Shown: piece after piece, positions 1-12,170 of the stretch
Layout of the letters: each line of letters opens with the position of its first letter
How positions within the stretch are numbered: position 1 is the stretch's first letter
From: Erysipelotrichales bacterium
GTDB taxonomy: Bacteria; Bacillota_I; Bacilli_A; RFN20; CAG-826
Reading direction: 5' to 3'
Length of the DNA stretch: 64,000 bases
NCBI GenBank assembly: GCA_022508525.1
Contig: JAFLVA010000003.1
Span: 39,769 to 103,768 of the forward strand
Program-made: the position numbers and the translations under genes
The notes under the pieces: model-generated
What the model was told of the DNA's origin: nothing
Seen by the model: only the letters and a program-made list of their open reading frames with translations
Databases searched by the model: none

Positions 1-466
1 TAATTATGGCGCCATCTTCCTTTTCACATATATATAATGCAATTTCTTTTTTTCCTACAATTAAGTAAAACAAATATTTTGAGCTTGTTTTGCATTTAAC
101 TGAATTATTCTTAAATGTGTTATAATCAGTACTCGAAGGAAAAACATAATCAGAAGGATGAAAATGCCAATCGCCTAGGTACATTGTAGTATTATCACAT
201 TTCCAAATAGAGTTGACAATTTCTATGTGATTTGGATCTAATCTACTATAACTAGTTGATGTAACACGATCAAAATATTGCTGATTTGTAATTCCTGAGA
301 TAATATATTCGTTTTTTTCTTTGATTTTAAATCCATACAAAATGCCTCCACTTTCTAAATGAGAATTTGTTACTTTAAAAAGACTTTTAATTACATCAGT
401 TTTTATAACTATTGATAGTCTTTTATATGTTATTACTACGTTTTCCACATATATCGCATCCTTCAT
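1..466 (-). CDS. cap3: CBASS Cap3-like JAB/JAMM metallopeptidase; C-terminus runs off the window, not in ORF track
   Basis: Hand translation of minus strand from ATG at 466-464: MKDAIYVENVV..HLESGGILYGF..LGDWHFHPSDYVFPSSTDYNTF.. carries the full JAMM motif E..HxHx7Sx2D. Start overlaps the cap2 stop by 44 nt. In-frame stop upstream at 491-493. Confidence 0.8.
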   Translation of the reverse strand, partial: MKDAIYVENVVITYKRLSIVIKTDVIKSLFKVTNSHLESGGILYGFKIKEKNEYIISGITNQQYFDRVTSTSYSRLDPNHIEIVNSIWKCDNTTMYLGDWHFHPSDYVFPSSTDYNTFKNNSVKCKTSSKYLFYLIVGKKEIALYICEKEDGAII

Positions 467-2093
467 AAACAAAATCTTTAGATATAGAATCTAATTCCTC
501 CTGAGTGTAGTTTGCATACTTTGTCAGCTTGTATCCATCCTGCAGATACTTTTTAAAGTTACCTTTTCTTATGAAATGCTTATTTCCCAAGGGGGAATAA
601 CTGCTATAATCATTTAATAATAAGTCTACAATTGAAGTGGCCAATCTAACTGTGGATACTTTCCCATAGGGAGTATAACTGCCTGCACATACATTATTTC
701 TAATTTTATAATCTACATCATCGGTAGTAAAATGAATATTGTTTGTTGATTTGCATAGGCAATTGTAACATCCAGGTTTTGATGTATCTATTGTTAGAAT
801 ATGTTCTGCGATTCCGTAAGGTTCAAGCCAACCAAAAATAAGCTTCGTATTAATATTATTGTCATAAATGTATTTATTTATATATTTGTGTAGAATATTA
901 TTTCCTACACAAACTATAATATATTTATATTTTTTTAGATTTAATTTAGTGCATTTTAAAAGTTCTACAATGTTTTCTTTATAAATTGTTATATTTACAT
1001 CAGGATATTTAAATTCTGTGAAACATTTTAAAACTTCAGCTTTATTGCTTTCTTCTAAATGATTTAAGTATATAAAACCTGTTAAATTTCTGTATGTGTT
1101 TTCATATTTCAAAAGATCGTAGTCGACTATGGATAAATTTAAAAATCCAGAGCTTGAAAGCAGTTCAACCACTTCGCTCCCAACAGATCCACATCCAATG
1201 ACTAATACATCTTCATCGGCCTGTATGCTTCCACCTCTAGTTCTCAAAAATTCAAAAGAAATATCACGAACATTATATATTTTTATGCATGTGTCAAAAG
1301 TAGAAATATTATTTTTATATACAATACTTTTATTTTGTTCTAACTCTGTAAGAAAGTAATTTTTAATTCCGTTATCAAGTTTATATTCACATAAAAAAAA
1401 TTGCGCTTTATTCATTTCTTTTTCCATTTTTTTCTGTGATGACTTGGTAAGACAATTATATAATTCATTGATCATCAAATTGCTGGTAGTAATCTTAGGT
1501 AAAGAGTGTAACTCTAAATGAATATAATTTCTGAATGGATAATTTTTATTTGAGTTTTTTTTATAACATTTGTATAGTGTAGAATCAATCCCGATTAATA
1601 TTCTATTTTCCTCAATAACTAATTGGCCTTTGTCGCCATTAATTGATGAACATAATAGACATTTTTTTTCGCAATAATTCAAATAAAAAGGTAGATAGTC
1701 ATTAAATTCGTATTTGATTTCTTTTGAGTTTTCTTCTTCTGAAACTAATAAAAGGTTTCTCAGAGAATTAATAGTTTTTATAATTACTTCTTCCTCATTC
1801 TCTATGTCATAGTCAATATCTTCTTGATTTTGAAGACAAACAACACCTTTTTTGTCAATGTGCGAATGAATTAAATCTGTAAGAACCGTTAGTTTTGGTA
1901 AGTGAATTGGAAAATATTTTGGAAGGAACAATTCAAATTTTTCCCCTAAGAAATCAAATGTACAAATAAATTGCGAGTCATGATTATTATATAATTTGCT
2001 TTTATCGGCTATTACAATATTCTCTATACCGATTATTTTTTCTAATATATTTTTATAATCAGGCATATTTTGCACTTTTTGAGAAAGACTCAT
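423..2093 (-). CDS. cap2: CBASS Cap2-like E2/E1 fusion (ubiquitin-transferase-like)
   Basis: 556 aa. N-terminal E2-like HIDKKGVVCL. ThiF/E1 Rossmann DVLVIGCGSVGSEVVELLSSSGF..IVDYD. Cys cluster PGCYNCLC. RBS GAGGA 5 nt upstream of ATG 2093. Sits between CD-NTase and JAB genes. Confidence 0.8.
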   Translation of the reverse strand: MSLSQKVQNMPDYKNILEKIIGIENIVIADKSKLYNNHDSQFICTFDFLGEKFELFLPKYFPIHLPKLTVLTDLIHSHIDKKGVVCLQNQEDIDYDIENEEEVIIKTINSLRNLLLVSEEENSKEIKYEFNDYLPFYLNYCEKKCLLCSSINGDKGQLVIEENRILIGIDSTLYKCYKKNSNKNYPFRNYIHLELHSLPKITTSNLMINELYNCLTKSSQKKMEKEMNKAQFFLCEYKLDNGIKNYFLTELEQNKSIVYKNNISTFDTCIKIYNVRDISFEFLRTRGGSIQADEDVLVIGCGSVGSEVVELLSSSGFLNLSIVDYDLLKYENTYRNLTGFIYLNHLEESNKAEVLKCFTEFKYPDVNITIYKENIVELLKCTKLNLKKYKYIIVCVGNNILHKYINKYIYDNNINTKLIFGWLEPYGIAEHILTIDTSKPGCYNCLCKSTNNIHFTTDDVDYKIRNNVCAGSYTPYGKVSTVRLATSIVDLLLNDYSSYSPLGNKHFIRKGNFKKYLQDGYKLTKYANYTQEELDSISKDFVYEGCDICGKRSNNI

Positions 2094-3003
2094 TGCTTTC
2101 CTCTTTTTCTGGCTCTGGGAAGTCTGGAAATATTTTTCTCAGTATACAGCAACATTCATATAAACTGGATTTTTTAATATTTTTAGCTTCAATTAATGTA
2201 TTATGTAATTTTTTCACTTCTTCTAAAAATATTGATACGCATTTTTCATCAGCGTCCATTTTATAATAGATATTATCCGAAGAAAACGGATGACATTTGG
2301 ATATGTGACCATTAATAACTAAGTTTTTTAGCCTGTTTGCAATTTCGATAAGTGTGTCTAAATCATTGTCAAAAAAGAAAGAATCAAACCATTCTTTTGC
2401 TTCTAACGTTAAGGCAATACTTGGGGTTTTTGAATTTTTTCTTTTATTTGCAAATGCGTTGTTATTCCATTTTTTAAGAAGTCTAATTATTCTCTTATAA
2501 TCAGTGTTTTTTGATTGCAAATACTCTATTAAATCATTTGGTTTAGATTCGACCCATTTGACATCATCTTGCTTTCCATCTGCCAAATAATATTTTTTTG
2601 TTTGATCATCATAGGCAAAAATTGGAAAATCAATATGATAATTAGGATTACCATCTTTTATATATATGGCTGTTAGACATTTTGTTTTAAATTTTTTCTC
2701 CTTATGATTAGATATAGCATCATAAACAGATTTTTTGCATTCATTTGCATCGTATTTTTCTAAATCTGATTCTAGAATATTAAGTCTTATACCACAATCA
2801 ATGTCATAGTCATTATCTTTATATTTTACGCCTGTCTTTAATTTATAACTTCCCAAATTAATATAACTAAATGTTAAGTTATCCAAATTATTTTTAATCT
2901 CATCTAAAGTGATATCCCTTTTTTCTCTCATTTTGTCATAATCACTATCATGTAGCATTATTGAATCATTATAGTCTTTAAATAAATCATTTAAATCTTT
3001 CAT
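2059..3003 (-). CDS. CD-NTase (cGAS/DncV-like nucleotidyltransferase)
   Basis: 314 aa. GS..DxD active-site pattern GSYKLKTGVKYKDNDYDIDCGI, third acidic site HIDFPIF, IIRLLKKWNN helix typical of CD-NTases. ATGA overlap with upstream SAVED gene. Ends in TGA. Confidence 0.8.
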   Translation of the reverse strand: MKDLNDLFKDYNDSIMLHDSDYDKMREKRDITLDEIKNNLDNLTFSYINLGSYKLKTGVKYKDNDYDIDCGIRLNILESDLEKYDANECKKSVYDAISNHKEKKFKTKCLTAIYIKDGNPNYHIDFPIFAYDDQTKKYYLADGKQDDVKWVESKPNDLIEYLQSKNTDYKRIIRLLKKWNNNAFANKRKNSKTPSIALTLEAKEWFDSFFFDNDLDTLIEIANRLKNLVINGHISKCHPFSSDNIYYKMDADEKCVSIFLEEVKKLHNTLIEAKNIKKSSLYECCCILRKIFPDFPEPEKEESNESFSKSAKYA

Positions 3004-3773
3004 TTTTGTATTCTTCCTTCCTTAATGTTAATTTTCCATGTGTAGTTTCCGTTTTCATATTCGTAACAGTACACATTTGGGTGATGCTTTTGTATTGAAC
3101 TACCAATCGTAAAAGCAATAGATTGCCTTGCTGCAACGTATAAATGTATGTTTTTTACATTTTTGTAATCTAAGTAATCAAATAGTTTTAAACATTCTTC
3201 ATAAACAAAATCCAAATATTCTTTGGAAATTACCTCGTTTTTCATCCTTACATTAAGAAATATTGAATTTCTTTTAGGTAATTTATCAGTGCTTATATCA
3301 TATGAACTATTTATAACGACATTGATGTCTTCTAATGAATTTTCGATTTCATAATTGATGTCATAATCGATGTGTTTTTTGCTGCTTTTTACTATATATT
3401 TTTTATTAGTATTTTTGTTGTTTTCCAAAAAAACAATGTTTGCTTTGTTGCTTGCCATATACCCATCATAAATCGCTAATGGCACGCTAACGCATCCAGT
3501 ATAATAAAGTGTTTTAGAATATTTTTTACTTTTATTAAATCTTTTCCAAATATACTTCATTTTTTTTAAATGGAGCTTATAATACTTATCGTTTAACGTA
3601 TATAGTTGTATTACATTGCTATTTTGCAGTCCAATTTCTTTTTCAAATGTGCGCATATCTTCACCTAAAAATTTTTTATTACAATTAACATAAATAATGT
3701 TTTTATCATATTGTTTTTTGATTTTTTTGTAAATTTCTATTAGTTGCCAAACAAATTTAAATAGTTCTATCAT
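3000..3773 (-). CDS. SAVED-domain protein (cyclic-oligonucleotide sensor) with no recognisable fused effector; ORF track extends to 3848
   Basis: Two CARF-like halves: YYTGCVSVPLAIYDGYM and IHLYVAARQSIAFTIGSSIQKHHPNVYCYEY. Preferred start is ATG 3773 with AAAGGGGGGG SD-like run upstream. The 25-codon extension to 3848 has no SD and coincides with promoter/CIRCE-like sequence. Confidence 0.6.
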   Translation of the reverse strand: MIELFKFVWQLIEIYKKIKKQYDKNIIYVNCNKKFLGEDMRTFEKEIGLQNSNVIQLYTLNDKYYKLHLKKMKYIWKRFNKSKKYSKTLYYTGCVSVPLAIYDGYMASNKANIVFLENNKNTNKKYIVKSSKKHIDYDINYEIENSLEDINVVINSSYDISTDKLPKRNSIFLNVRMKNEVISKEYLDFVYEECLKLFDYLDYKNVKNIHLYVAARQSIAFTIGSSIQKHHPNVYCYEYENGNYTWKINIKEGRIQK

Positions 3774-3800
3774 GCGATATGTCCCCCCCTTTGTTACTAT

Positions 3801-3830
3801 ATTATATAAACAAATTAGCACTGTTGTCAA
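3801..3830 (-). promoter_or_regulatory. Putative sigma-70-type promoter of the CBASS operon
   Basis: Minus-strand read TTGACA (3830-3825), then 16-18 nt, then TATATA/TATAAT (3808-3801), followed by a G-rich SD and ATG 3773. Confidence 0.5.
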
Positions 3831-3841
3831 CAAAGTGCTAA
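3815..3841. promoter_or_regulatory. CIRCE-like inverted repeat (HrcA-operator-like) overlapping the CBASS -35 box
   Basis: Plus strand reads TTAGCACTG-TTGTCAACA-AAGTGCTAA versus consensus TTAGCACTC-N9-GAGTGCTAA (16/18). Arms are self-complementary at 8/9. Layout matches the distal clpB CIRCE at 20429-20455. Confidence 0.6.
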
Positions 3842-3913
3842 AAAACATTTGCTGAAAGTTGTCAAATTGTTAATTTTGCGGCAAAAACGGAATAATTATC
3901 TCAGTTTTATACA

Positions 3914-3941
3914 TTGAAATAGTACAACTTTATGATAAAAT
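3914..3941 (+). promoter_or_regulatory. Putative promoter of the helicase-nuclease gene
   Basis: TTGAAA, 16 nt, TGaTAAAAT (extended -10); AGGAG RBS 7 nt before ATG 3970. Such matches are common in AT-rich DNA. Confidence 0.35.
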
Positions 3942-3969
3942 TATTTTAATAAGTGCTTAGGAGTAAACT

Positions 3970-6900
3970 ATGAAGACTTTATTAAATAATTACTGCTTTT
4001 CTGAAAAAAAAGGTGGGTTATTATTGATAGATATGCCTACTGGTATAGGAAAAACACATGATGCTATTGAGTTCATATATGAAAACTATAAGAAAGCAAA
4101 AAATAAGATTATTTTCATTACTAATTTAAAGAAAAATTTACCTATAGCAGATTTACAAGAATATTTTAAAAAAGATAATAGGTTAGATGAGTTTGAAAAC
4201 GATGTCTTGTTTTTAGATAATAATGTTGATACTCTCATTGATCACTTCGATGAAGTTAAAACTTTAATACCAAGAGATAAATTTAATAAAAATGGTATTT
4301 TAAACAACGTGGAGACTTGCATTAATATTATACACACGCTCAAACCCGCTTTGAATAAAAGAAAAGATATGGCAAGAGATATTGTTTCAAAAGATAATAC
4401 TATTTTTATTATAAACCAAGCCAAAGAAAACCTTAGAGATAAATATGAAAAGGAGTTTAGATTAGTAATTGAAGAAGTATTAAAAATTGATGCTGATGGA
4501 AAGAAAAGAACAAAAGCGCAAAAATTACAACTCATCAAAGATGATTCTGATTATCAATGGATTTCAAAACTTTATCCAGCTGTATTCACTGATGAAAAGA
4601 AAATACTTTTTATGAGTATTGATAAATTTCTTGTTAGAAATTCAACAATTATTGAGCCTTCATATAATTTCCTTGATAATAAATCATTATTAAACGATTC
4701 CATTATTTTTATTGATGAGTTTGATTCAAGCAAAGAAATTTTTTTAAATAATATAATAGATGATTGTTTAAACACTGAAATAGGAATAATTGAATTATTC
4801 CGTATAATTTATTCTGGGTTGGAAACTACTAATTTTTCAAGATTATTAACAGAAGTATCTAAAAAACTATTTGACAATATAAATAATAAAAAATTACGTT
4901 ACTATACGCCAGAGAAGATACTGAATGAGTTTAGTGCGCGAGCAAAAGAAATTGAAGAAAAATATAATCTTGTTGATTTTCATAAACTTGAGGTTTCAGA
5001 AAAAGAAAAGGCAAACTTTTTGTTTCAGGATTATCAATTTCATACAGTTCTAAATGATGAGAAAAAATTTGTTTATTTTGAAAACGACCATAAACAGCAT
5101 ATAAACTGGATAAAAAGTTCCAACAGTAAAAAAACAACTGAGGAGGAAAGTCTTTTTTCATTGCTTAATGAAATTAAATCTTTTTTAGTGTATTTCCAAA
5201 ATGGAGTTAAGTTAATTGCGGATAACTATTTATCATTAAAGAATGATAGAAATCAAGAAACAAATAATTTTTCTTATGAAGCCGCTGTAAAAACAGTTTT
5301 ATCAGAGTTTGGTATTGATGGGAAATATTTAAATTACTTAACCAGTCAAATTCTTAACACAAAGAAAACAAAATCGGTTAAACTAGTTGATTTAAAAAGT
5401 GAACTAGATTGCTCAGTTTATGAAAAAGGATTTAGATTTTATAATTTAATAGATAATGATAGTTTTGATACTCAATCAAAAATTAATTTAATATCTTTTA
5501 ATATATCGCCAGAAAAACTATTAATTTATTTATGCTCAAACTCTAAAGTAGTGGGTATATCCGCAAGTGGCACTTTAAATACAGTTACTGGCAACTATGA
5601 TCTTCCTTATGTTAAAAGTAAATTAGGACATTTATACTACGAATTAAGTCGGGATGAACAAGATAGAATTAACAATTTTGTTATGAAAAATTTAGGTGAT
5701 TATAGTAATGTGAAAATTGATATTGATAAATGTATTATTAATGATAAAAATTATTATGATGTTATACAAAATTTTTTGACTGAAGATGAGTTTAAGTTAA
5801 TCAAAAAGAAAATTGATAAAATTACTACAGAAGACTATATGAAATCAAGATATTGCAAAGTTACGTATGCAATTCATAACTTTTTTGTAAGAAATATAAA
5901 TTCATTTTTATTTTTAACAAATGTGTCGATGAATAATAGTATGAATTTTAATTACGAAGTAGTTAAATTTATATTTAAAACATTAAAAACAAAGTATTGT
6001 AAAAATGCATATTTATATTCTTTAGATGGTCCGTTAGATAAATTTGAAAATTTAAAAGAAAATATTTTTAGTAAATTGAAAGAAGGAAATGATGTGTTTG
6101 TAGTTTCGTCCTATCAATCAATTGGAGCCGGTCAAAACTTACAATACGAATATAATGAAATGTATGAAGATTTATTGGAAACAATAAAAGATAGTTCATA
6201 TGGAAAAAAATATAAAGACTTTGATGCTTTATTTTTGGATAAGCCAACTAATTTGTTTGTAAATATGAATTCTAGCCCAACAGAAGAGCAATTACTAAAA
6301 TTTATATATCAAATTAAGTGTCTAGAGGAAGTTGGTTTTTTTACTCTTGAACAAGCGAATATTGAGATAAAAAAAGGAATTAAAAGATTATATCATACTT
6401 CTACTCAAAGAATTAGAACTCCAAGGTCAAAACATTTATATATGCATACTGCTAAAATTATTTTACAAGCAATTGGAAGAATATGTAGAACTAATAAAAA
6501 GAATAAAAACATTTATATTTCCTTTGATCAACAAATGGAAACCGAGCTAGCAATTTGTAAAGAAGATCTTCTCAACATACAAATTAATTATGAACTAAGA
6601 AAATTGCTAAGTGAGTGTAAAAATATAAAAATTATTGATGATCAAAGCATACATAATGTAAACAATTCGAAAATTAGAAAAATTAATGATAGATTAGAGA
6701 CTCTAAAACAGTTTAAATTTGAAAGTGATATTGAAAAATGGGAGGAATTGAGAGATGTTGTTTTAAAACATCCGTACGATAATGATGAAATACATTTTAA
6801 ATATGATATATATGTTGAGTTAAAGGAAGCTAGTAATCATTATTATTACAATTTAAATGAATACAATGAAATAAACGTTACATATAGTATGCCTAATGAT

Positions 6901-7431
6901 TTTTGCATATGTGAAAATTCCTCCAATTTAAAAACGCTTATGTCCATAAATGGTGTTAAAGATTATTTTGAACTAAAAGGTTATGCAACCTCATTTCAAA
7001 AATCAAGATATATTCTTTTTCCGAATGTTTTTAATAGAATATATCTTGGTGCATTAGGCGAGGTTGTTGGTGAGTTTTTAGTGAACAAAATATTGGAACC
7101 TTTCAATTTTAAACTTGAACGCATTAGGGAACTAGAAAGATATGAAAAATTCGATTTTGTTTTTGATAATGATAAATATATTGATTTTAAATATTGGAGC
7201 GGAATGAATGATAAAGAAAGAACCGCTGAAGTAAATAGAGCATTAAAAAAATTAGATAAATGCCAGGGTAAAATATGCTACATAATTAACATACTCAAAC
7301 CAGAAAATTATGATCCTAAACTTTACATAAGTGCAGATTCAAGATTAATTATAATTCCTTATTTATATAATCCCGAAACTTGCAAATTTAATAATAATGC
7401 TATAGAGTTGCTTTTAAAAAACAGCTTTTAA
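3970..7431 (+). CDS. SF2 helicase (DinG/XPD-like motif pattern) fused to a C-terminal PD-(D/E)xK-like nuclease domain
   Basis: 1153 aa. Motif I DMPTGIGKTH, motif II IIFIDEFDSS, motif III GISASGTL, motif V-like SSYQSIGAGQNL, motif VI LQAIGRICRT. C-terminus GALGEVVGEFL..EKFDFVF..YIDFKYW fits a D..(D/E)xK nuclease core. Confidence 0.65.
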   Translation: MKTLLNNYCFSEKKGGLLLIDMPTGIGKTHDAIEFIYENYKKAKNKIIFITNLKKNLPIADLQEYFKKDNRLDEFENDVLFLDNNVDTLIDHFDEVKTLIPRDKFNKNGILNNVETCINIIHTLKPALNKRKDMARDIVSKDNTIFIINQAKENLRDKYEKEFRLVIEEVLKIDADGKKRTKAQKLQLIKDDSDYQWISKLYPAVFTDEKKILFMSIDKFLVRNSTIIEPSYNFLDNKSLLNDSIIFIDEFDSSKEIFLNNIIDDCLNTEIGIIELFRIIYSGLETTNFSRLLTEVSKKLFDNINNKKLRYYTPEKILNEFSARAKEIEEKYNLVDFHKLEVSEKEKANFLFQDYQFHTVLNDEKKFVYFENDHKQHINWIKSSNSKKTTEEESLFSLLNEIKSFLVYFQNGVKLIADNYLSLKNDRNQETNNFSYEAAVKTVLSEFGIDGKYLNYLTSQILNTKKTKSVKLVDLKSELDCSVYEKGFRFYNLIDNDSFDTQSKINLISFNISPEKLLIYLCSNSKVVGISASGTLNTVTGNYDLPYVKSKLGHLYYELSRDEQDRINNFVMKNLGDYSNVKIDIDKCIINDKNYYDVIQNFLTEDEFKLIKKKIDKITTEDYMKSRYCKVTYAIHNFFVRNINSFLFLTNVSMNNSMNFNYEVVKFIFKTLKTKYCKNAYLYSLDGPLDKFENLKENIFSKLKEGNDVFVVSSYQSIGAGQNLQYEYNEMYEDLLETIKDSSYGKKYKDFDALFLDKPTNLFVNMNSSPTEEQLLKFIYQIKCLEEVGFFTLEQANIEIKKGIKRLYHTSTQRIRTPRSKHLYMHTAKIILQAIGRICRTNKKNKNIYISFDQQMETELAICKEDLLNIQINYELRKLLSECKNIKIIDDQSIHNVNNSKIRKINDRLETLKQFKFESDIEKWEELRDVVLKHPYDNDEIHFKYDIYVELKEASNHYYYNLNEYNEINVTYSMPNDFCICENSSNLKTLMSINGVKDYFELKGYATSFQKSRYILFPNVFNRIYLGALGEVVGEFLVNKILEPFNFKLERIRELERYEKFDFVFDNDKYIDFKYWSGMNDKERTAEVNRALKKLDKCQGKICYIINILKPENYDPKLYISADSRLIIIPYLYNPETCKFNNNAIELLLKNSF

Positions 7432-7444
7432 AGGTTTTATATAA

Positions 7445-7468
7445 ACTTACATGTGTAAGTACTTTTTT
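7445..7468 (+). terminator. Rho-independent terminator after the helicase-nuclease gene
   Basis: ACTTAC-ATGT-GTAAGT hairpin followed by a T6 run. Confidence 0.45.
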
Positions 7469-7651
7469 GTTAGATATGATATTAGAGTTACTCATTTACA
7501 TTAGAATTATGTTTTTAAGTTTTACATATTATTTGAATTCATCATATTTACAAATTAATATTTTGTTACCGTCTCATTGAATATGATCGCCAAATTGACA
7601 ATCTCCACAAGTGAATTTATGTTATTACAATTGTTTATTTGAGTAATGTTT

Positions 7652-7977
7652 TTATAGCTTGTTATATTTTGTGGATACACCTTTAGCTTTATCAACGGGA
7701 TACTTTTTTTCTGTTTTATCCATTTTTTCATTTATGATTTCTAAAATGTCTACATTTACGACTAGAGACATTTGAATGCAATAATTCATTACATCTGCCA
7801 ATTCTTCTTTAACTTCTTCAATATCATATTCATTATCGTTCCATTGAAAACATTTTAATAATTCATTCGCTTCAATAGAAATAGATTTTGCTAAATTAGA
7901 TGGAGTATGGAATTTATCCCAATCTCTGTCTTTATTAAATTTATCGATTCGTTTTTTAATAATTTTAATTTGTCCAT
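7652..7977 (-). pseudogene. MazG-like all-alpha NTP pyrophosphohydrolase (DCTPP1-like), frameshifted in a 5' A6 tract
   Basis: GAGGA RBS + ATG 7977, giving MDKLKLLK. The frame breaks at A6 (plus-strand T6 7952-7957). The shifted frame reads KKRIDKFNKDRDWDKFHTPSNLAKSISIEANELLKCFQW..EELADVMNYCIQMS..KYPVDKAKG..* with no further lesions. Not in ORF track. Confidence 0.7.
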
Positions 7978-7988
7978 ACTTATATCCT

Positions 7989-9330
7989 CTAATTTAATTT
8001 TAACATTTTTTTAATATAATTTGACAATGCTTTATCTTCACAATAAATAAAACATCCTTTTTGCCCTCTTGTTAATAATGTTTTATATGTGTTTTTAATT
8101 AGTTGTTTAGCTAATACTTCTCCACAAGATCTAATACCTGATGATTTATCATCTTTTGAAATTTGATTTTTATCAGTTATTATTTCGTTTTTAACCTCGT
8201 CATATCTCAAATCTTTTCCGATAAGGACACCAATATAATTAAATTCTAGTCCTTGAGCAGTATGAATACATCCAACTTCTTCAAAAGACGATGGATTAAT
8301 AACCCATATTTTATCATTTTCTAAATTCCATCTTGCTTTAAATCCATTTTCTAAATAAATATCGTATTCTCCACGATGGTTTTTAACATCCCAATCATAA
8401 CAATACCCTGCAACCATACGTGCTTTATTATCAATTTCATTTTTATTTCTTAATTCATCTCTTAAAGCATTTGGATCATCAAAGACTCTAATATCGAAAT
8501 TTAAGTCAGAAACATCAATATCAACAGGTTCTCCTATTTGAAGAATGTTATTTATTAATTGAATATATAGATCACTACCATTACATCTAAATTGTTAAGT
8601 TAAAATTGTTTCTTCGTTCATTGTGACTCTACTATTTAATTGCTTTGCCCAATGAGCTATTTCTTCAATTGATCCAATATCTTTTGTAGTTACTTTTTGA
8701 TTTTCATCAATTAAAAATATTGTTAACAAAGAGGCATTGATGCATTCCATAATTTGATTTTGACCTTGGAAGTCACCATACATTTGTTTGACTAATCTAT
8801 GTGATTCATCCACAATTAAGCAATCATAAAAATTACTTGGAGACTTACATAATCCAAATGGTGATCTAAACAATTGCTTTATATTAACTTTTTTTTAAAT
8901 CGGGTTTACTTAATAATCTTAAATATGCATCTCTAGAGGCGCTATTTTTAGTGACATAACTAGTATTTAATACATTAGCAATGTATCGTTTTAAAAGATT
9001 TACAGCCAAAACAGATTTTCATGTACCTGGTCCGCCTTGAATAATAATAGTTTTTTCATAGTCTTAACACACATGTCATAAACTACAGCTTGTTCATCTA
9101 AAAGCATGAATTATTTTCTGCCTTTAATTAATAAAATGGTACGAGACAATCTTGTAATGACTTAGAAGGCTTAGTTCTACCATTATCAATTTTATATAAT
9201 AAATCACCATCATTTGATTTTTGATACAAAATGGTACCATATCATATCACTCTTTATAAATAGCATCATTTAATTTTCAGCAAATAACTATAACGTCGTA
9301 TTTATATTTATTGTATTTGATTATACGCGC
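7989..9330 (-). pseudogene. DUF2075-type P-loop NTPase (Schlafen-helicase-like), decayed; N-terminal limit approximate
   Basis: Reconstructed ..TIIIQGGPGT*KSVLAV.. has TGA at 9019-9021 in Walker A. Frameshift at the T8 run 8889-8896. CLIVDESHRL. In-frame TAA at 8595-8597. Then QFRCNGSD..MVAGYCYDW..IHTAQGLEFNYIGV..YKTLLTRGQKG. Another frameshift at the T6 run 9051-9056 and more stops upstream. Confidence 0.75.
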
Positions 9331-9506
9331 TACAATTGGGATATGAATAATTTTAAATTACAAATAGGCATGGTGTCATGACTATGTATAACTTAATATT
9401 TTTTAAATAATATTTCGATTGAACACACAATGCCAACTTGTACCATTGTTAAACATTTAACTCATCCTTTTTATATATTGTTTGAGCTGTTTTATTTAGA
9501 AATTAC

Positions 9507-10037
9507 TCACTCATCTTTATCTAAATCAATCATTCTTTTAATTATGAATCTAACTTTATCACTTTCAAATATTAAGCCAAGAATTTGTTTTAAAGCACTA
9601 ATTGATTCAACATATTCAATTGTAAATTTCTCTCCCAATATCCCATCTTCAATTTCGATTCTTAGTGGAAAAACAGATTGATAATTAAGTGTAAACAATC
9701 TAAATTTGTATTTTCTACTATAAATCTCAAATTTATATTTGTTTTTTTCGAATAATGAATCTGCATTTTCTAAATTTTGTGTTTCATCTTTTTCGATTTT
9801 TTCAACATTCGGCGCGCATAATGTTGAAGAAATCTCACTTGCTGCAATAAGTGCTTTTTTCAAAACTTCAGAATTTAGATTTTTATATTGATAATGTACA
9901 AGGCTAAGCGAAGCCGTAACTTTTCCATCTGTTTTTTCTTTGAGTAAGTTTGCCTGACCTCTAATAAGAGATAAAGCTGTACTTGCAATATTCTTATTAC
10001 AATTTACATTTCCCCATAAATCTAGTTTGTCATCCAT
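9507..10037 (-). CDS. Hypothetical 176-aa protein, translationally coupled to the upstream EEP gene
   Basis: AAGGAGAG RBS 6-7 nt before ATG 10037. 12-nt gap after the EEP stop. No motif recognised. Ends in TGA. Confidence 0.55.
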   Translation of the reverse strand: MDDKLDLWGNVNCNKNIASTALSLIRGQANLLKEKTDGKVTASLSLVHYQYKNLNSEVLKKALIAASEISSTLCAPNVEKIEKDETQNLENADSLFEKNKYKFEIYSRKYKFRLFTLNYQSVFPLRIEIEDGILGEKFTIEYVESISALKQILGLIFESDKVRFIIKRMIDLDKDE

Positions 10038-10049
10038 AAATTTCTCTCC

Positions 10050-10853
10050 TTATATATTAATATTTACTAATAATGGAAGATGATCACTAATTTTTTTATT
10101 AGGTTTTTTCTTCTTTATTAAATCTTGTTGCTTTATTTTTTTTAAGTATTTGAAAGTGTGTATTTGATTGGCCAAGTTTTTTCTAACTAATATTTGATCA
10201 AAACAATACCAATAAAGACAGTAATTGCCAGAACTATAATAAAACGAGCCATAGTTTTCGTTGGTTTCGTTAATATATTCTATAATCGGATTATAAAATC
10301 GTCTATATTTACATTCTAAGTAAGTAACAACTTCTTGCGAATTTATAATGTTTTTGAAAAGGACCGAATTAAAAGAGTCCTTTTCAATCATTTCTGCATC
10401 AAAGGGACTTGCATTCATATCGCCAATTACTATACTACTCTCAATATTGTCTTTCTCAGCATCTGAAATATCATTTATTATATTTCTTATAATATGTTTT
10501 CGATCACTACTATTAGAACCACATGTGTTTGATGGTAAATGTACACCTACTATTATATATTTTTTGTTTTCTAGATTTAATTTGGCTAATAAATATCTAT
10601 GTTGCTCTCTGATTAATGTGAGTGAAATTGTATTCCTATATAAGATTTTAACTTTCTTGCAACCACCAAAACTTTCTAATAAACAAAAACTATCTGAAAG
10701 TTTTCTTTTTAAAATATCAAAATTAATATTTTCATACTCCGAAAATATAGCGATGTCTATACTATTTTCTTGAATACAATCTGCAATAATTAATTCTAGA
10801 TTATTATTAGATTTTAAATTCCAATACAACAAATTCATTAGTTTCATTCCCAC
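10050..10853 (-). CDS. Endonuclease/exonuclease/phosphatase (EEP) family protein
   Basis: LLYWNL N-terminal strand, GVHLPS, VIGDMNASPFD and C-terminal SDHLPLLV motifs. Start ambiguous: GTG 10853, ATG 10847 or ATG 10838. Confidence 0.7.
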   Translation of the reverse strand: MGMKLMNLLYWNLKSNNNLELIIADCIQENSIDIAIFSEYENINFDILKRKLSDSFCLLESFGGCKKVKILYRNTISLTLIREQHRYLLAKLNLENKKYIIVGVHLPSNTCGSNSSDRKHIIRNIINDISDAEKDNIESSIVIGDMNASPFDAEMIEKDSFNSVLFKNIINSQEVVTYLECKYRRFYNPIIEYINETNENYGSFYYSSGNYCLYWYCFDQILVRKNLANQIHTFKYLKKIKQQDLIKKKKPNKKISDHLPLLVNINI

Positions 10854-10880
10854 AAAAGCAATATGCCCATTTATATATTA

Positions 10881-10909
10881 TTTATAGCATGTTTATTGAA
10901 ATATATCAA
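10881..10909 (-). promoter_or_regulatory. Possible promoter of the EEP two-gene module
   Basis: Minus-strand TTGATA, 17 nt, TATAAA about 25 nt upstream of the start. Weak evidence in AT-rich DNA. Confidence 0.3.
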
Positions 10910-11162
10910 TTGTATTAGTTGATTTTTTTGAGCTACAGTTGCTTTATATTATTTAGGTTTTTAATAGAATGAAATAAAAATGTAAGCGTATGCTTTAAGC
11001 ATCTAAACTAAAAGGAGAAACTATATGTGAATATTATATAACTAAATGATAAGAGTTTGATGGATATTTGCAAATATCGCTTGGAAACGATGAGTGTCAT
11101 ATTAACTTTGCATTTTTTGTTTTTGTAAATCAAAAATCAATTTGAGTTTTTGTTCATATTGA

Positions 11163-11555
11163 CTAACTATAAAACTTCTTTCTTGCAGTATATAGTTTAT
11201 ATATTCCATAAATAATGCCTATAAGTGTTACCACTGATAAGTAGCTAGTAACATATAAAAAATCAAATGAGCCAGAAATCAAAATGACCAATACTACACT
11301 AAATGTATAAGACATGATTAAAGGTATTAGATTAAAAAATTTGAATTTAATTTTAAAAATTAAACCTACTAAATAAGAAATTGAATAAGAAATAAATACA
11401 GTGCTAATCCAAATTATGCCAAGAATGACCAAATGCAATGAAGAAAAATCAAAATCAATTAATCCAACAATTGTTCCAAATATAATAGATAGTATAGAAG
11501 CAATTATTGAAACAATAATCATTTTAATAAAATTTCGTTTTTTTAATCTTATCAA
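11163..11555 (-). CDS. Small multi-pass membrane protein (hypothetical)
   Basis: About four hydrophobic helices. Track start is TTG without SD. ATG at 11522 (MIIVSII..) is an alternative. Confidence 0.4.
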   Translation of the reverse strand: MIRLKKRNFIKMIIVSIIASILSIIFGTIVGLIDFDFSSLHLVILGIIWISTVFISYSISYLVGLIFKIKFKFFNLIPLIMSYTFSVVLVILISGSFDFLYVTSYLSVVTLIGIIYGIYKLYTARKKFYS

Positions 11556-11576
11556 TACTATTTTTTATTTTAGTCA

Positions 11577-11810
11577 CTATTTTTTATTGCCCCCGAAAAA
11601 ATTCGAAAAGGCCTCTTTTGATTTGCCTAATATATTTTTCTTTTGATCATAATGCTCTAATTTATCATTAAGAGAAATAGCATGTCTATAAAAGTTTTCT
11701 ATTTCTAATTTTTCGTTGTAGTTATATTCGTCGTAATTATCCATAATATCTTCAATTACTTTATTTAATGCTTTAATTAAATTCTTTTTTTGCTCATAAT
11801 CGTTCTCCAA
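11577..11810 (-). CDS. Hypothetical 77-aa helical protein (doubtful)
   Basis: ORF only. TTG start, no SD, no motif. Confidence 0.25.
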   Translation of the reverse strand: MENDYEQKKNLIKALNKVIEDIMDNYDEYNYNEKLEIENFYRHAISLNDKLEHYDQKKNILGKSKEAFSNFFGGNKK

Positions 11811-12023
11811 ATGTTTTGCTAATTTTACTTTGTTTATTACTAAAAGAAATTACAAATGTAAATGTTCTATTCTATAACTTTAAGCGAATTATAAAGTTTG
11901 CATATTCTCTAAAATTTCATATTAAAATTATAACATATAAATTATGTATATGCGTTTCTGAATTTAAAATAAAGAAACAAATTAAAAACATTTTGCGTGC
12001 TTGCAAAATGTTAATAAAATAAC

Positions 12024-12098
12024 TGGTAGTCCCAACGGGAATCGAACCCGTGATCCAGCCTTGAGAGGGCTGTGTCTTAACCGCTTGACGATGGGACC
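12024..12098 (-). tRNA. tRNA-Glu (anticodon CUC)
   Basis: GGTCCCATCGTCAAGCGGTTAAGACACAGCCCTCTCAAGGCTG..GGGTTCGATTCCCGTTGGGACTACCA. Cloverleaf foldable by eye. Anticodon loop CT-CTC-AA. CCA encoded. Confidence 0.85.
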
Positions 12099-12170
12099 AT
12101 ATGACTATATTTAATCACGAATAATAGTGTTATGCAAACATTATTTATAATTAAATATAGTTATTTTTCT

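What the first reader, a model, noticed from the sequence alone, without database searches (positions are those of the whole stretch)
3970..7431. 1153-aa helicase-nuclease fusion divergent from CBASS: candidate single-gene defence, or CBASS accessory
All SF2 motifs are present: GIGKT, DEFD, SASGT, QAIGRICR. A roughly 170-aa insertion lies between motifs Ia and II, and the motif V region (SIGAGQNL) recalls DinG/XPD-like enzymes. No Fe-S cysteine cluster is visible. The last 130 aa or so carry a D..(D/E)xK pattern (GALGEVVGEFL .. EKFDFVF .. YIDFKYW) typical of restriction-endonuclease-fold nucleases. The gene has its own promoter-like sequence, RBS and terminator, and no methyltransferase partner. 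It lies between CBASS and decayed defence-type genes. Helicase+nuclease single proteins (Hna- or Nhi-like concepts) are known antiphage effectors. I cannot assign this protein to any named family by eye.
Basis: partly seen in the sequence, partly recalled or inferred. Interest (0 to 1): 0.7.

Follow-up and report, generated by a model that had tools for sequence, protein, structure and literature searches.

The report
DdmD-type helicase-nuclease without its Argonaute partner
The 1153-aa gene is a full-length relative of DdmD, the helicase-nuclease of the DdmDE anti-plasmid system, but it belongs to a conserved branch in gut Firmicutes that has lost the Argonaute partner DdmE, so it probably works as a one-gene defence nuclease.

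Summary
The protein does have a named family. It is a full-length DdmD homologue by three tests: PADLOC DdmD (E=2e-37), PDB DdmD chains (E=1e-43), and a confident AF2 model that matches DdmD structures at TM 0.78-0.79, against 0.30 for DinG/XPD. The Walker A lysine and all five nuclease catalytic residues are conserved.

Canonical DdmD needs the Argonaute DdmE, which is encoded directly downstream. Here there is no DdmE anywhere in the 64-kb window. Across about 160 related loci, homologues at roughly 31-35% identity nearly always carry ddmE. The window protein sits in one monophyletic clade (36-69% identity, about 25 informative loci, all Bacillota MAGs) with no ddmE and no other conserved neighbour. 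That clade is under strong purifying selection (dN/dS 0.05-0.12). Its members lie among varied defence genes such as CBASS, restriction-modification, Fic and Stk2.

The CBASS-accessory idea is not supported. The most likely function is an Argonaute-independent DdmD that loads directly on single-stranded or forked foreign DNA. This mechanism is inferred, not shown. I rate it a new variant of a known kind, of moderate interest.

The parts
3970..7431 (+). ddmD-like gene: 1153-aa SF2 (XPD/DinG-type) helicase fused to a PD-(D/E)xK nuclease, with no ddmE partner
   Evidence: ORF confirmed. PADLOC DdmD E=1.9e-37. PDB DdmD chains E=1.4e-43 and 4e-41. AF2 model pLDDT 86, pTM 0.86. Foldseek top 20 hits are all DdmD, TM 0.70-0.79.
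3914..3969 (+). Putative promoter (TTGAAA-16-TG-TAAAAT, 3914-3941) and AGGAG ribosome-binding site (3959-3963)
   Evidence: The promoter match is 10/12 and is not above chance for this AT-rich DNA. The RBS is read directly from the sequence.
4036..4059 (+). Helicase motif I / Walker A (PTGIGKTH, aa 23-30). K28 is taken as the counterpart of VcDdmD K55
   Evidence: G25, G27 and K28 are invariant in 75 homologues. K55A abolishes DdmDE activity (Loeff et al., read). The K28-to-K55 correspondence rests on the Walker A motif and the short alignment, not on a full alignment.
4141..4587 (+). INS domain (aa ~58-206), an all-helical insertion in HD1 at the position of the XPD Fe-S domain but without a cluster
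   Evidence: AF2 secondary structure. One Cys only, C117. DdmD INS lacks Fe-S (Loeff et al.). Boundaries are inferred.
4714..4725 (+). Helicase motif II (DEFD, aa 249-252)
   Evidence: D249, E250 and D252 are invariant.
4726..5544 (+). Arch-like insertion (aa ~253-525) between motifs II and III
   Evidence: AF2 secondary structure and the full-length match to DdmD structures. Boundaries are inferred.
5560..5574 (+). Helicase motif III (SASGT, aa 531-535)
   Evidence: S531 and A532 are invariant.
5737..5889 (+). HD2 helical bundle (aa ~590-640), equivalent to the VcDdmD S603-A633 bundle that docks DdmE. It is shortened in the DdmE-less clade
   Evidence: Alignment with VcDdmD and 79 homologues shows a 5-aa deletion at window aa 619, and about 10 residues more missing in the sub-clade of L024, L026, L006 and L082. 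The role of the bundle is taken from Loeff et al..
6118..6141 (+). Helicase motif V region (SIGAGQNL, aa 717-724)
   Evidence: G719, G721, Q722 and N723 are invariant.
6466..6489 (+). Helicase motif VI (QAIGRICR, aa 833-840)
   Evidence: Q833, A834, G836, R837, C839 and R840 are invariant.
7000..7428 (+). C-terminal PD-(D/E)xK nuclease core (aa ~1011-1153), with catalytic residues E1031, E1059, D1062, D1072 and K1074
   Evidence: These residues align with VcDdmD E1059, E1082, D1085, D1100 and K1102 and are invariant in all 21 DdmE-less and 58 DdmE-linked sequences. Alanine mutants of the Vc residues abolish plasmid elimination (Loeff et al.).
7432..7649 (.). Downstream spacer with a weak AT-rich hairpin plus T-run (about 7446-7468). 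No ddmE is present here
   Evidence: A six-frame DdmE-HMM search of the whole window gave no hit better than E=5.9.

Best explanation
The gene encodes a DdmD-family helicase-nuclease. It has an XPD/DinG-like SF2 motor, predicted to run 5'-3', with INS and Arch insertions, joined to a C-terminal PD-(D/E)xK ssDNA nuclease. It belongs to a monophyletic branch of the family in Bacillota, mostly gut and rumen MAGs, that has lost the DNA-guided Argonaute DdmE. In the canonical DdmDE system DdmE recruits and activates DdmD.

The most likely function is a stand-alone, Argonaute-independent defence effector carried in a low-GC defence island. The protein would load directly on foreign DNA that exposes single-stranded or forked structures. 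Examples are rolling-circle or conjugative ssDNA intermediates and replication forks of phages or plasmids. It would then translocate using ATP and nick or degrade the DNA with its nuclease.

The following are shown here: family membership, fold, intact catalytic residues, absence of ddmE in the window and within about 8 kb of the gene in clade members, monophyly of the clade, purifying selection, and defence-island context. The following are inferred: the anti-plasmid or anti-phage role, self-loading on ssDNA or forks, polarity and oligomeric state.
For: Family and fold:
- PADLOC DdmD E=1.9e-37.
- phmmer against the PDB: L. casei DdmD E=1.4e-43 over aa 15-1117, and V. cholerae DdmD E=4e-41.
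- AF2 model with pLDDT 86 and pTM 0.86.
- The Foldseek top 20 hits are all DdmD (E down to 9e-57, TM up to 0.79). DinG/XPD follow at TM 0.24-0.31.
- Catalytic residues are invariant.

No DdmE:
- A DdmE HMM built from neighbours confirmed by PADLOC finds ddmE directly downstream of DdmD in 57 of 58 genome loci with 31-35% identity to the query.
- It also finds ddmE in every one of the 72 metagenome loci at 31-36% identity to the query that has any sequence downstream of ddmD. Several of these are partial copies cut off at a contig end.
- It finds none in the 64-kb window or in any locus of the window's clade, even with --max and E<=10.

Clade:
- The DdmE-less sequences are monophyletic in 30 of 30 bootstraps and sister to the DdmE-linked ones when the tree is rooted on V. 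cholerae DdmD, so a single loss is most parsimonious.

Functional:
- dN/dS is 0.05-0.12 within the clade.

No substitute partner:
- Flanking genes differ between loci.
- No PADLOC family occurs in more than 5 of 119 flanking proteins.
- The small upstream genes seen in the closest relatives are absent from the window.

Defence context:
- Neighbours include CBASS, type I/II/III RM, SoFic/PDC-S04, PDC-S14, Stk2, SIR2 and DUF4011/SLFN helicases.
- The region 1-12 kb has 24-27% GC against about 30% elsewhere and abuts a tRNA-Glu gene.

Plausibility of autonomous action:
- V. cholerae DdmD alone degrades ssDNA (Loeff et al.).
- Forked DNA alone dissociates the autoinhibited dimer, and DdmD alone nicks plasmids (Yang et al., bioRxiv 10.1101/2024.07.20.604412).
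- L. casei DdmD alone degrades ssDNA and nicks plasmids.
- The helical bundle that docks DdmE in V. cholerae DdmD is shortened in this clade.
Against: - No experiment exists for any member of this clade.
- In V. cholerae and E. coli, DdmD needs DdmE for plasmid elimination in vivo, so autonomy would require a changed activation mechanism that I could not demonstrate.
- Only about 8 kb on each side of most loci, and 64 kb here, were searched. A DdmE or other sensor encoded elsewhere in the genome is not excluded.
- The shortening of the docking bundle is small. The interface residues are poorly conserved even among DdmE-linked homologues, so that argument is weak.
- The oligomeric state and autoinhibition could not be assessed.
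Confidence: 0.55

Rival explanations
1. The protein is still a guided effector. It is recruited in trans by a sensor encoded elsewhere in the genome, such as an unlinked DdmE, an ApsB-like Argonaute or another DNA-binding surveillance complex.
For: Canonical DdmD is inactive on plasmids in vivo without DdmE (Loeff et al.). The overall architecture is unchanged and there are only small indels relative to DdmE-linked homologues. Only about 8 kb of flanking sequence was searched for most loci.
Against: ddmE overlaps or abuts ddmD in every DdmE-linked locus but one that has downstream sequence to judge, so an unlinked arrangement would be unprecedented. None of the top 80 genome loci pairs a DdmE-less copy with a DdmDE copy from the same assembly (accessions). 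The 64-kb window contains no DdmE.
Confidence: 0.2
2. It is a housekeeping or repair-type DinG/XPD-like helicase-nuclease and not an immune gene.
For: The motor is XPD/DinG-like. There is strong purifying selection.
Against: The protein matches DdmD far better than DinG/XPD (TM 0.79 against 0.30). Its distribution is patchy: only about 5-8 of the 1.84 billion 50%-identity representatives fall in this clade. It sits in a low-GC region next to a tRNA gene. Its neighbours differ from locus to locus and are dominated by RM, CBASS, Fic, Stk2 and SIR2 genes.
Confidence: 0.1
3. It is a non-functional relic left after deletion of ddmE.
For: DdmE loss does occur sporadically (L040). Several ddmE genes elsewhere are split (L058, L080, L143, L161, L167 and L168). 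The window's own island contains decayed genes.
Against: The ORF is intact. All catalytic residues are invariant across a clade that spans 36-69% identity. dN/dS is 0.05-0.12.
Confidence: 0.05
4. It is an accessory or second effector of the adjacent CBASS operon.
For: It lies 121 bp from the CBASS effector gene, transcribed divergently.
Against: No other locus of the clade has CBASS next to the gene. The CBASS operon is already complete, with Cap3, Cap2, CD-NTase and a SAVED effector. The protein has no recognisable cyclic-nucleotide sensor domain.
Confidence: 0.03

Closest known systems
DdmD of the DdmDE anti-plasmid system (V. cholerae VSP-2; L. casei LcDdmDE)
   Same: Both are full-length homologues of about 1150-1190 aa. 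They share the same domain order (HD1 with a cluster-less INS and an Arch insertion, HD2, and a C-terminal PD-(D/E)xK nuclease). They share the Walker A lysine and five nuclease residues, and the fold matches at TM 0.78-0.79.
   Different: Identity to the solved proteins is only about 20%. There is no ddmE gene in the window or within about 8 kb of the gene in any member of its clade. The helical bundle that docks DdmE is shortened, and a residue that is always Glu in the DdmE-linked homologues sampled here (it aligns with V. cholerae position 802) is always Lys (K783) in this clade.
ApsA of the ApsAB anti-plasmid system (E. coli ST38)
   Same: ApsA is described as part of the same broad ApsA-to-DdmD helicase-nuclease family, and it also acts with an Argonaute-like partner (PMC11096173).
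   Different: ApsA is longer (its nuclease residues lie near aa 1420-1435) and is always paired with ApsB. Here there is no conserved downstream gene of 500 aa or more. I did not test direct similarity to ApsA.
DinG / XPD / CasDinG helicases
   Same: They share an SF2 motor with insertions at the Fe-S and Arch positions, and DdmD has been shown experimentally to have 5'-3' polarity.
   Different: The structural match is only TM 0.24-0.31. There are no Fe-S cysteines, and the protein carries an extra C-terminal nuclease.
Stand-alone helicase-nuclease defence proteins (the Hna and Nhi concepts) and Cas3
   Same: The concept is the same: one polypeptide combines a translocase with a nuclease that destroys invader DNA.
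   Different: The PADLOC scan gave no match apart from a Walker-A-level hit to Cas3 (E=4e-4). The fold family is different.

Membership tests
DdmDE system (DdmD component) | Full-length sequence homology to DdmD | tested here: met
   PADLOC PDLC04130 E=1.9e-37. PDB 9ix4_A E=1.4e-43 over aa 15-1117, and 9bf1/8u0u E=4e-41 over aa 310-1150.
DdmDE system (DdmD component) | DdmD fold: XPD-like SF2 helicase with a cluster-less INS and an Arch insertion, plus a C-terminal PD-(D/E)xK domain | tested here: met
   AF2 pLDDT 86, pTM 0.86. Foldseek top 20 hits are all DdmD, TM up to 0.79. One Cys in INS.
DdmDE system (DdmD component) | Catalytic residues: Walker A Lys (Vc K55) and nuclease E1059, E1082, D1085, D1100, K1102 | tested here: met
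   K28, E1031, E1059, D1062, D1072 and K1074 are invariant in both clades.
DdmDE system (whole system) | A ddmE gene (long-C pAgo) adjacent to ddmD | tested here: not met
   The DdmE HMM finds nothing in the 64-kb window or in about 25 loci of the clade. It finds ddmE in 57/58 genome loci and 72/72 metagenome loci of the sister clade.
DdmDE system (whole system) | Elimination of plasmids in vivo, with DNA-guided recruitment | not testable with these tools
   This needs plasmid-loss assays.
DdmDE system (DdmD component) | Autoinhibited homodimer through the INS and Arch domains | not testable with these tools
   Only monomer prediction was available.
CBASS accessory gene | Recurrent co-occurrence with a CD-NTase operon | tested here: not met
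   CBASS flanks the gene only in the window. It is absent from the other 21 loci examined.
XPD/DinG helicases | 4Fe-4S cluster cysteines in the HD1 insertion, and no nuclease fusion of PD-(D/E)xK type | tested here: not met
   One Cys in aa 58-206. TM is only 0.24-0.31 to DinG/XPD.
Hna / Nhi / other PADLOC single-gene helicase-nucleases | Match to the family HMM | tested here: not met
   Only DdmD and a marginal Cas3 Walker-A hit were returned at E<=0.01.
ApsAB | An ApsB-like Argonaute encoded downstream | tested here: not met
   There is no conserved downstream gene in the clade. In the window the next gene is a convergent 107-aa MazG-like ORF. No ApsB profile was available, so this rests on gene size and conservation only.

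The most novel reading that the evidence does not exclude
A whole lineage of DdmD helicase-nucleases has become independent of Argonaute. The effector of a guided system would have evolved into a self-sufficient innate sensor-effector that recognises DNA structure itself, such as ssDNA or forks of plasmids, conjugative DNA or phages. This would show that the DdmD motor-nuclease can discriminate invaders without a guide.
Probability: 0.45. Interest if true: 0.6.

Novelty: new variant of a known kind. Interest (0 to 1): 0.45.

Why it matters
DdmDE is currently understood as a two-part machine. The Argonaute DdmE finds the plasmid with a DNA guide and hands it to DdmD. A conserved, selected DdmD lineage with no DdmE suggests that the effector can be deployed alone. 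That would make it a compact one-gene anti-plasmid or anti-phage nuclease in gut Firmicutes. It would also offer a natural experiment on how DdmD autoinhibition is released without Argonaute. In practice, detection tools that require both genes, as PADLOC- and DefenseFinder-style two-gene rules would (my recollection of those rules, not checked here), would miss these loci.

Tried and rejected
1. Pfam and NCBIfam gave only sub-threshold ResIII or irrelevant hits, so they could not name the family.
2. I tested three candidate substitute partners. Fic proteins lie directly upstream in L005 and L006. They match stand-alone SoFic/PDC-S04 models and occur in only 2 of about 22 loci. A type III RM Res subunit lies upstream in L014, L024 and L026 and is part of ordinary RM operons. 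Small divergent 121-aa and 77-aa genes occur in the closest relatives, have no Pfam or PADLOC match, and are absent from the window.
3. The CBASS-accessory idea was rejected.
4. Carriage on phages or plasmids: there was no phage hit, and only 5 weak or distant plasmid hits.
5. The promoter and terminator claims are not above chance.
6. A simple bit-score cut-off does not separate the clades cleanly. P0080 (648 bits) has a 604-aa gene overlapping its 3' end in the usual ddmE position, which I did not score with the DdmE model. P0084 (637 bits) has no such gene. Phylogeny is needed instead.
7. Literature searches for a DdmD-like protein without an Argonaute found nothing. The library is incomplete, and the original Jaskolska et al. 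2022 paper was not among the papers retrieved.
Full report
**1. The observation**

The ORF at 3970-7431 (+) is intact and encodes 1153 aa. An AGGAG sequence lies 6 nt before the ATG.
- GIGKT at aa 25-29
- DEFD at 249-252
- SASGT at 531-535
- SIGAGQNL at 717-724
- QAIGRICR at 833-840
- GALGE at 1027-1031
- EKFD at 1059-1062
- IDFKYW at 1071-1076

Most of these residues are invariant across 75 homologues. The insertion between motifs Ia and II is an all-helical segment of about 150 aa (aa 58-206) with a single cysteine, so it has no Fe-S cluster. A second insertion of about 270 aa lies between motifs II and III.

The promoter-like site at 3914-3941 is not above chance in this AT-rich DNA. The proposed terminator is a weak hairpin (-6.6 kcal/mol, z = -0.67). 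The gene is still a one-gene unit, because the upstream gene is divergent and the downstream gene is convergent.

**2. What the protein is**

Pfam and NCBIfam could not name it. PADLOC gives DdmD (PDLC04130, E=1.9e-37).

A sequence search of the PDB returns only DdmD chains. Lactobacillus casei DdmD (9ix4) matches at E=1.4e-43 over aa 15-1117. Vibrio cholerae DdmD (9bf1, 8u0u, 9ezx and others) matches at E=4e-41 over aa 310-1150.

An AlphaFold2 model built on a 75-sequence alignment is confident, with mean pLDDT 86.1 and pTM 0.86. Foldseek against the PDB gives DdmD for the top 20 hits (E down to 9e-57, TM 0.70-0.79 over the full length). The next fold family, DinG/XPD/CasDinG, reaches only TM 0.24-0.31.

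I aligned the protein with V. cholerae DdmD, whose sequence I reconstructed from the printed alignment. The five nuclease residues shown by mutagenesis to be essential are E1059, E1082, D1085, D1100 and K1102 (Loeff et al., bioRxiv 10.1101/2024.05.10.593530). They correspond to E1031, E1059, D1062, D1072 and K1074 here, and they are invariant in every homologue examined. By motif correspondence, K28 is the counterpart of the Walker A lysine K55.

These are exactly the published description of DdmD.

**3. The missing partner**

In DdmDE, the catalytically dead long-C Argonaute DdmE uses short 5'-phosphorylated DNA guides to open a D-loop on plasmid DNA. It then recruits DdmD, breaks the autoinhibited DdmD dimer and loads it on the displaced strand. 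The ddmE gene lies directly downstream of ddmD.

In this window the 557 bp after the stop codon carry no such gene. Next come a convergent MazG-like ORF (7650-7975, Pfam PF12643 E=7e-17) and a decayed SLFN-g3/DUF2075 helicase (7989-9240).

I built a DdmE profile starting from the 600-aa gene downstream of a 35%-identical homologue. PADLOC calls that gene DdmE at E=1.7e-8. A six-frame search with all filters off finds nothing better than E=5.9 anywhere in the 64-kb window.

**4. The loss is a property of a clade, not an accident of this locus**

I collected 80 loci from species-representative genomes, 80 from metagenomes, and further contigs by exact protein look-up.
- Among the genome loci, 57 of 58 homologues at 31-35% identity have ddmE overlapping or abutting the 3' end of ddmD. 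This count includes three copies cut off at contig ends. The exception is L040.
- Among the metagenome loci at 31-36% identity to the query, every one of the 72 with any sequence downstream of ddmD has it. Several of these are partial copies cut off at a contig end.
- No locus with 36-69% identity to the window protein has it. This covers the window, L001-L007, L010-L028, L033, L082, L090-L094 and L171, which is about 25 non-redundant loci with enough flanking DNA.

In a neighbour-joining tree, the 21 non-redundant full-length DdmE-less sequences form one clade. With V. cholerae DdmD as the outgroup, this clade is monophyletic in 30 of 30 bootstrap replicates and is sister to all 58 DdmE-linked sequences. 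Both the outgroup and the sister group carry DdmE, so one loss is the most parsimonious history. All members come from Bacillota MAGs (Erysipelotrichales, Clostridia, Lachnospiraceae, Christensenella), apart from one probably mis-binned contig. The window itself matches a protein annotated in an Erysipelotrichales MAG (P0001).

The clade is small. Only about 5-8 of the 451 strong (E<=1e-30) 50%-identity representatives of the family belong to it.

**5. The clade is functional and has no substitute partner**

Nei-Gojobori dN/dS for unsaturated pairs within the clade is 0.05-0.12. The helicase and nuclease motifs are invariant. This rules out a decaying relic.

Flanking genes differ from locus to locus. 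Clustering of the neighbours shows no family shared across the clade. A PADLOC scan of 119 flanking proteins from 22 loci finds no family in more than 5 of them, and DNA methyltransferases are the most common.

Three recurring neighbours were examined and set aside:
- Fic proteins directly upstream in L005 and L006 match the stand-alone SoFic/PDC-S04 models.
- A Res subunit upstream in L014, L024 and L026 belongs to ordinary type III RM operons.
- Small divergent 121-aa and 77-aa genes in the closest relatives have no family match and no counterpart in the window.

The neighbourhoods are typical defence islands. They include CBASS, type I/II/III RM, PDC-S14, Stk2, SIR2 and DUF4011 or SLFN helicases. 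In the window, the first 12 kb are lower in GC (24-27% against about 30%) and end at a tRNA-Glu gene.

CBASS is next to the gene only here, and that operon is already complete with a Cap3 JAB protein, Cap2 E1/E2, a CD-NTase and a SAVED effector. The CBASS-accessory idea is therefore not supported. The gene is not found on phages and only distantly on plasmids.

**6. How it most likely works**

Shown here:
- a DdmD motor-nuclease with intact catalytic sites
- no Argonaute in the window or in the flanks of clade members
- purifying selection
- a defence-island context

Inferred: the protein acts alone.

Three published observations make this plausible. V. cholerae DdmD by itself is a potent ssDNA nuclease and a 5'-3' helicase. 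Forked DNA with a long single-stranded arm dissociates the autoinhibited dimer without DdmE, and DdmD alone nicks plasmids (Yang et al., bioRxiv 10.1101/2024.07.20.604412). L. casei DdmD, the closest solved relative by sequence, degrades ssDNA and nicks plasmids alone.

I therefore propose that the protein self-loads on exposed ssDNA or forks of invading DNA. Candidates are rolling-circle and conjugative intermediates, which are common in Firmicutes, and phage replication forks. It would then degrade that DNA while translocating.

Two sequence features fit relaxed or altered partner contacts, although only weakly:
- The HD2 helical bundle that docks DdmE in V. cholerae (S603-A633) is 5 residues shorter in the whole clade, and about 10 residues shorter still in one sub-clade.
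- A position that is Glu in all 58 DdmE-linked sequences (it aligns with V. cholerae position 802) is Lys in all 21 DdmE-less ones (K783).

The main rival is that a sensor encoded elsewhere recruits the protein in trans. I could not search whole genomes, so this remains open, at roughly 0.2 probability.

**7. Comparison with what is known, and novelty**

The protein is a member of the DdmD protein family, since sequence, fold and catalytic residues are all met. The locus is not a DdmDE system, because the defining second gene was tested for and is absent.

The related ApsAB system also pairs its helicase-nuclease with an Argonaute-like protein. The paper that links ApsA to DdmD describes the family as split between ApsB-associated and DdmE-associated classes (PMC11096173).

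I found no description of an Argonaute-less DdmD lineage in the searchable literature. The library is incomplete, however.

I classify this as a new variant of a known kind. The interest is moderate, for two reasons. The clade is a natural test of whether the DdmD effector can recognise invaders without a guide. Two-gene detection rules would also be expected to overlook it.

Noticed in passing
window 1-3848 (- strand): A complete type II CBASS operon lies here. It has a SAVED-domain effector (3000-3848), a CD-NTase (2059-3003), a Cap2 E1/E2 (423-2093) and a Cap3 JAB protein (1-472, cut by the window start).
   Followed up: partly
window 7650-7975 (- strand): A MazG-like NTP pyrophosphohydrolase ORF (Pfam PF12643, E=7e-17) is convergent with the ddmD-like gene. 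Its only nearby ATG (7972-7974) is out of frame with the body. This could be a frameshift at the start, a non-canonical start codon or an assembly error.
   Followed up: partly
window 7989-9240 (- strand): A decayed SLFN-g3/DUF2075-type helicase is split into at least three pieces (PF09848, E=2e-35 and 2e-16).
   Followed up: partly
window 9507-10853 (- strand): This is a tight two-gene cassette with a 12-bp gap. One gene encodes a 176-aa protein with no family match. The other encodes a 267-aa endonuclease/exonuclease/phosphatase-fold protein with weak Pfam hits. PADLOC matches neither, so it may be an uncharacterised defence pair.
   Followed up: no
window 1-12100: GC content is 24-27% here against about 30-33% in the rest of the window. 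The low-GC block ends at tRNA-Glu (12024-12098, -), next to gltX. This is consistent with a defence island inserted beside a tRNA gene. No integrase was seen within the window.
   Followed up: no
L005:6070-6960 and L006:5965-6951: Fic-domain proteins (PDC-S04 type and SoFic type) lie immediately upstream of DdmE-less ddmD-like genes in two different sub-clades, on the same strand with a 40-50 bp gap. This is probably island neighbourhood, but a functional pairing is not excluded.
   Followed up: partly
L001, L002/L012, L010, L015 (about 130-750 bp upstream of the ddmD-like gene, - strand); the 77-aa family also occurs in L005: Divergent small genes of about 121 aa and 77 aa recur upstream of the closest relatives. 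They have no Pfam or PADLOC match and are absent from the window. They could be regulators or an unrelated small module.
   Followed up: partly
L040; L058, L080, L143, L161, L167, L168: Within the DdmE-linked clade, one locus (L040) has lost ddmE entirely and has ABC-transporter genes downstream. Several others have ddmE split into two ORFs or interrupted (L080 has about 2.3 kb between the pieces). DdmE decay therefore recurs.
   Followed up: no
window aa 783 (nt 6316-6318): There is a clade-specific charge reversal in HD2. The residue is Lys in all 21 DdmE-less sequences and Glu in all 58 DdmE-linked sequences sampled here (the column aligns with V. cholerae position 802). Its structural role was not determined.
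   Followed up: no
L047 and L048: Two separate DdmDE loci occur on different contigs of the same MAG (RUG327).
   Followed up: no
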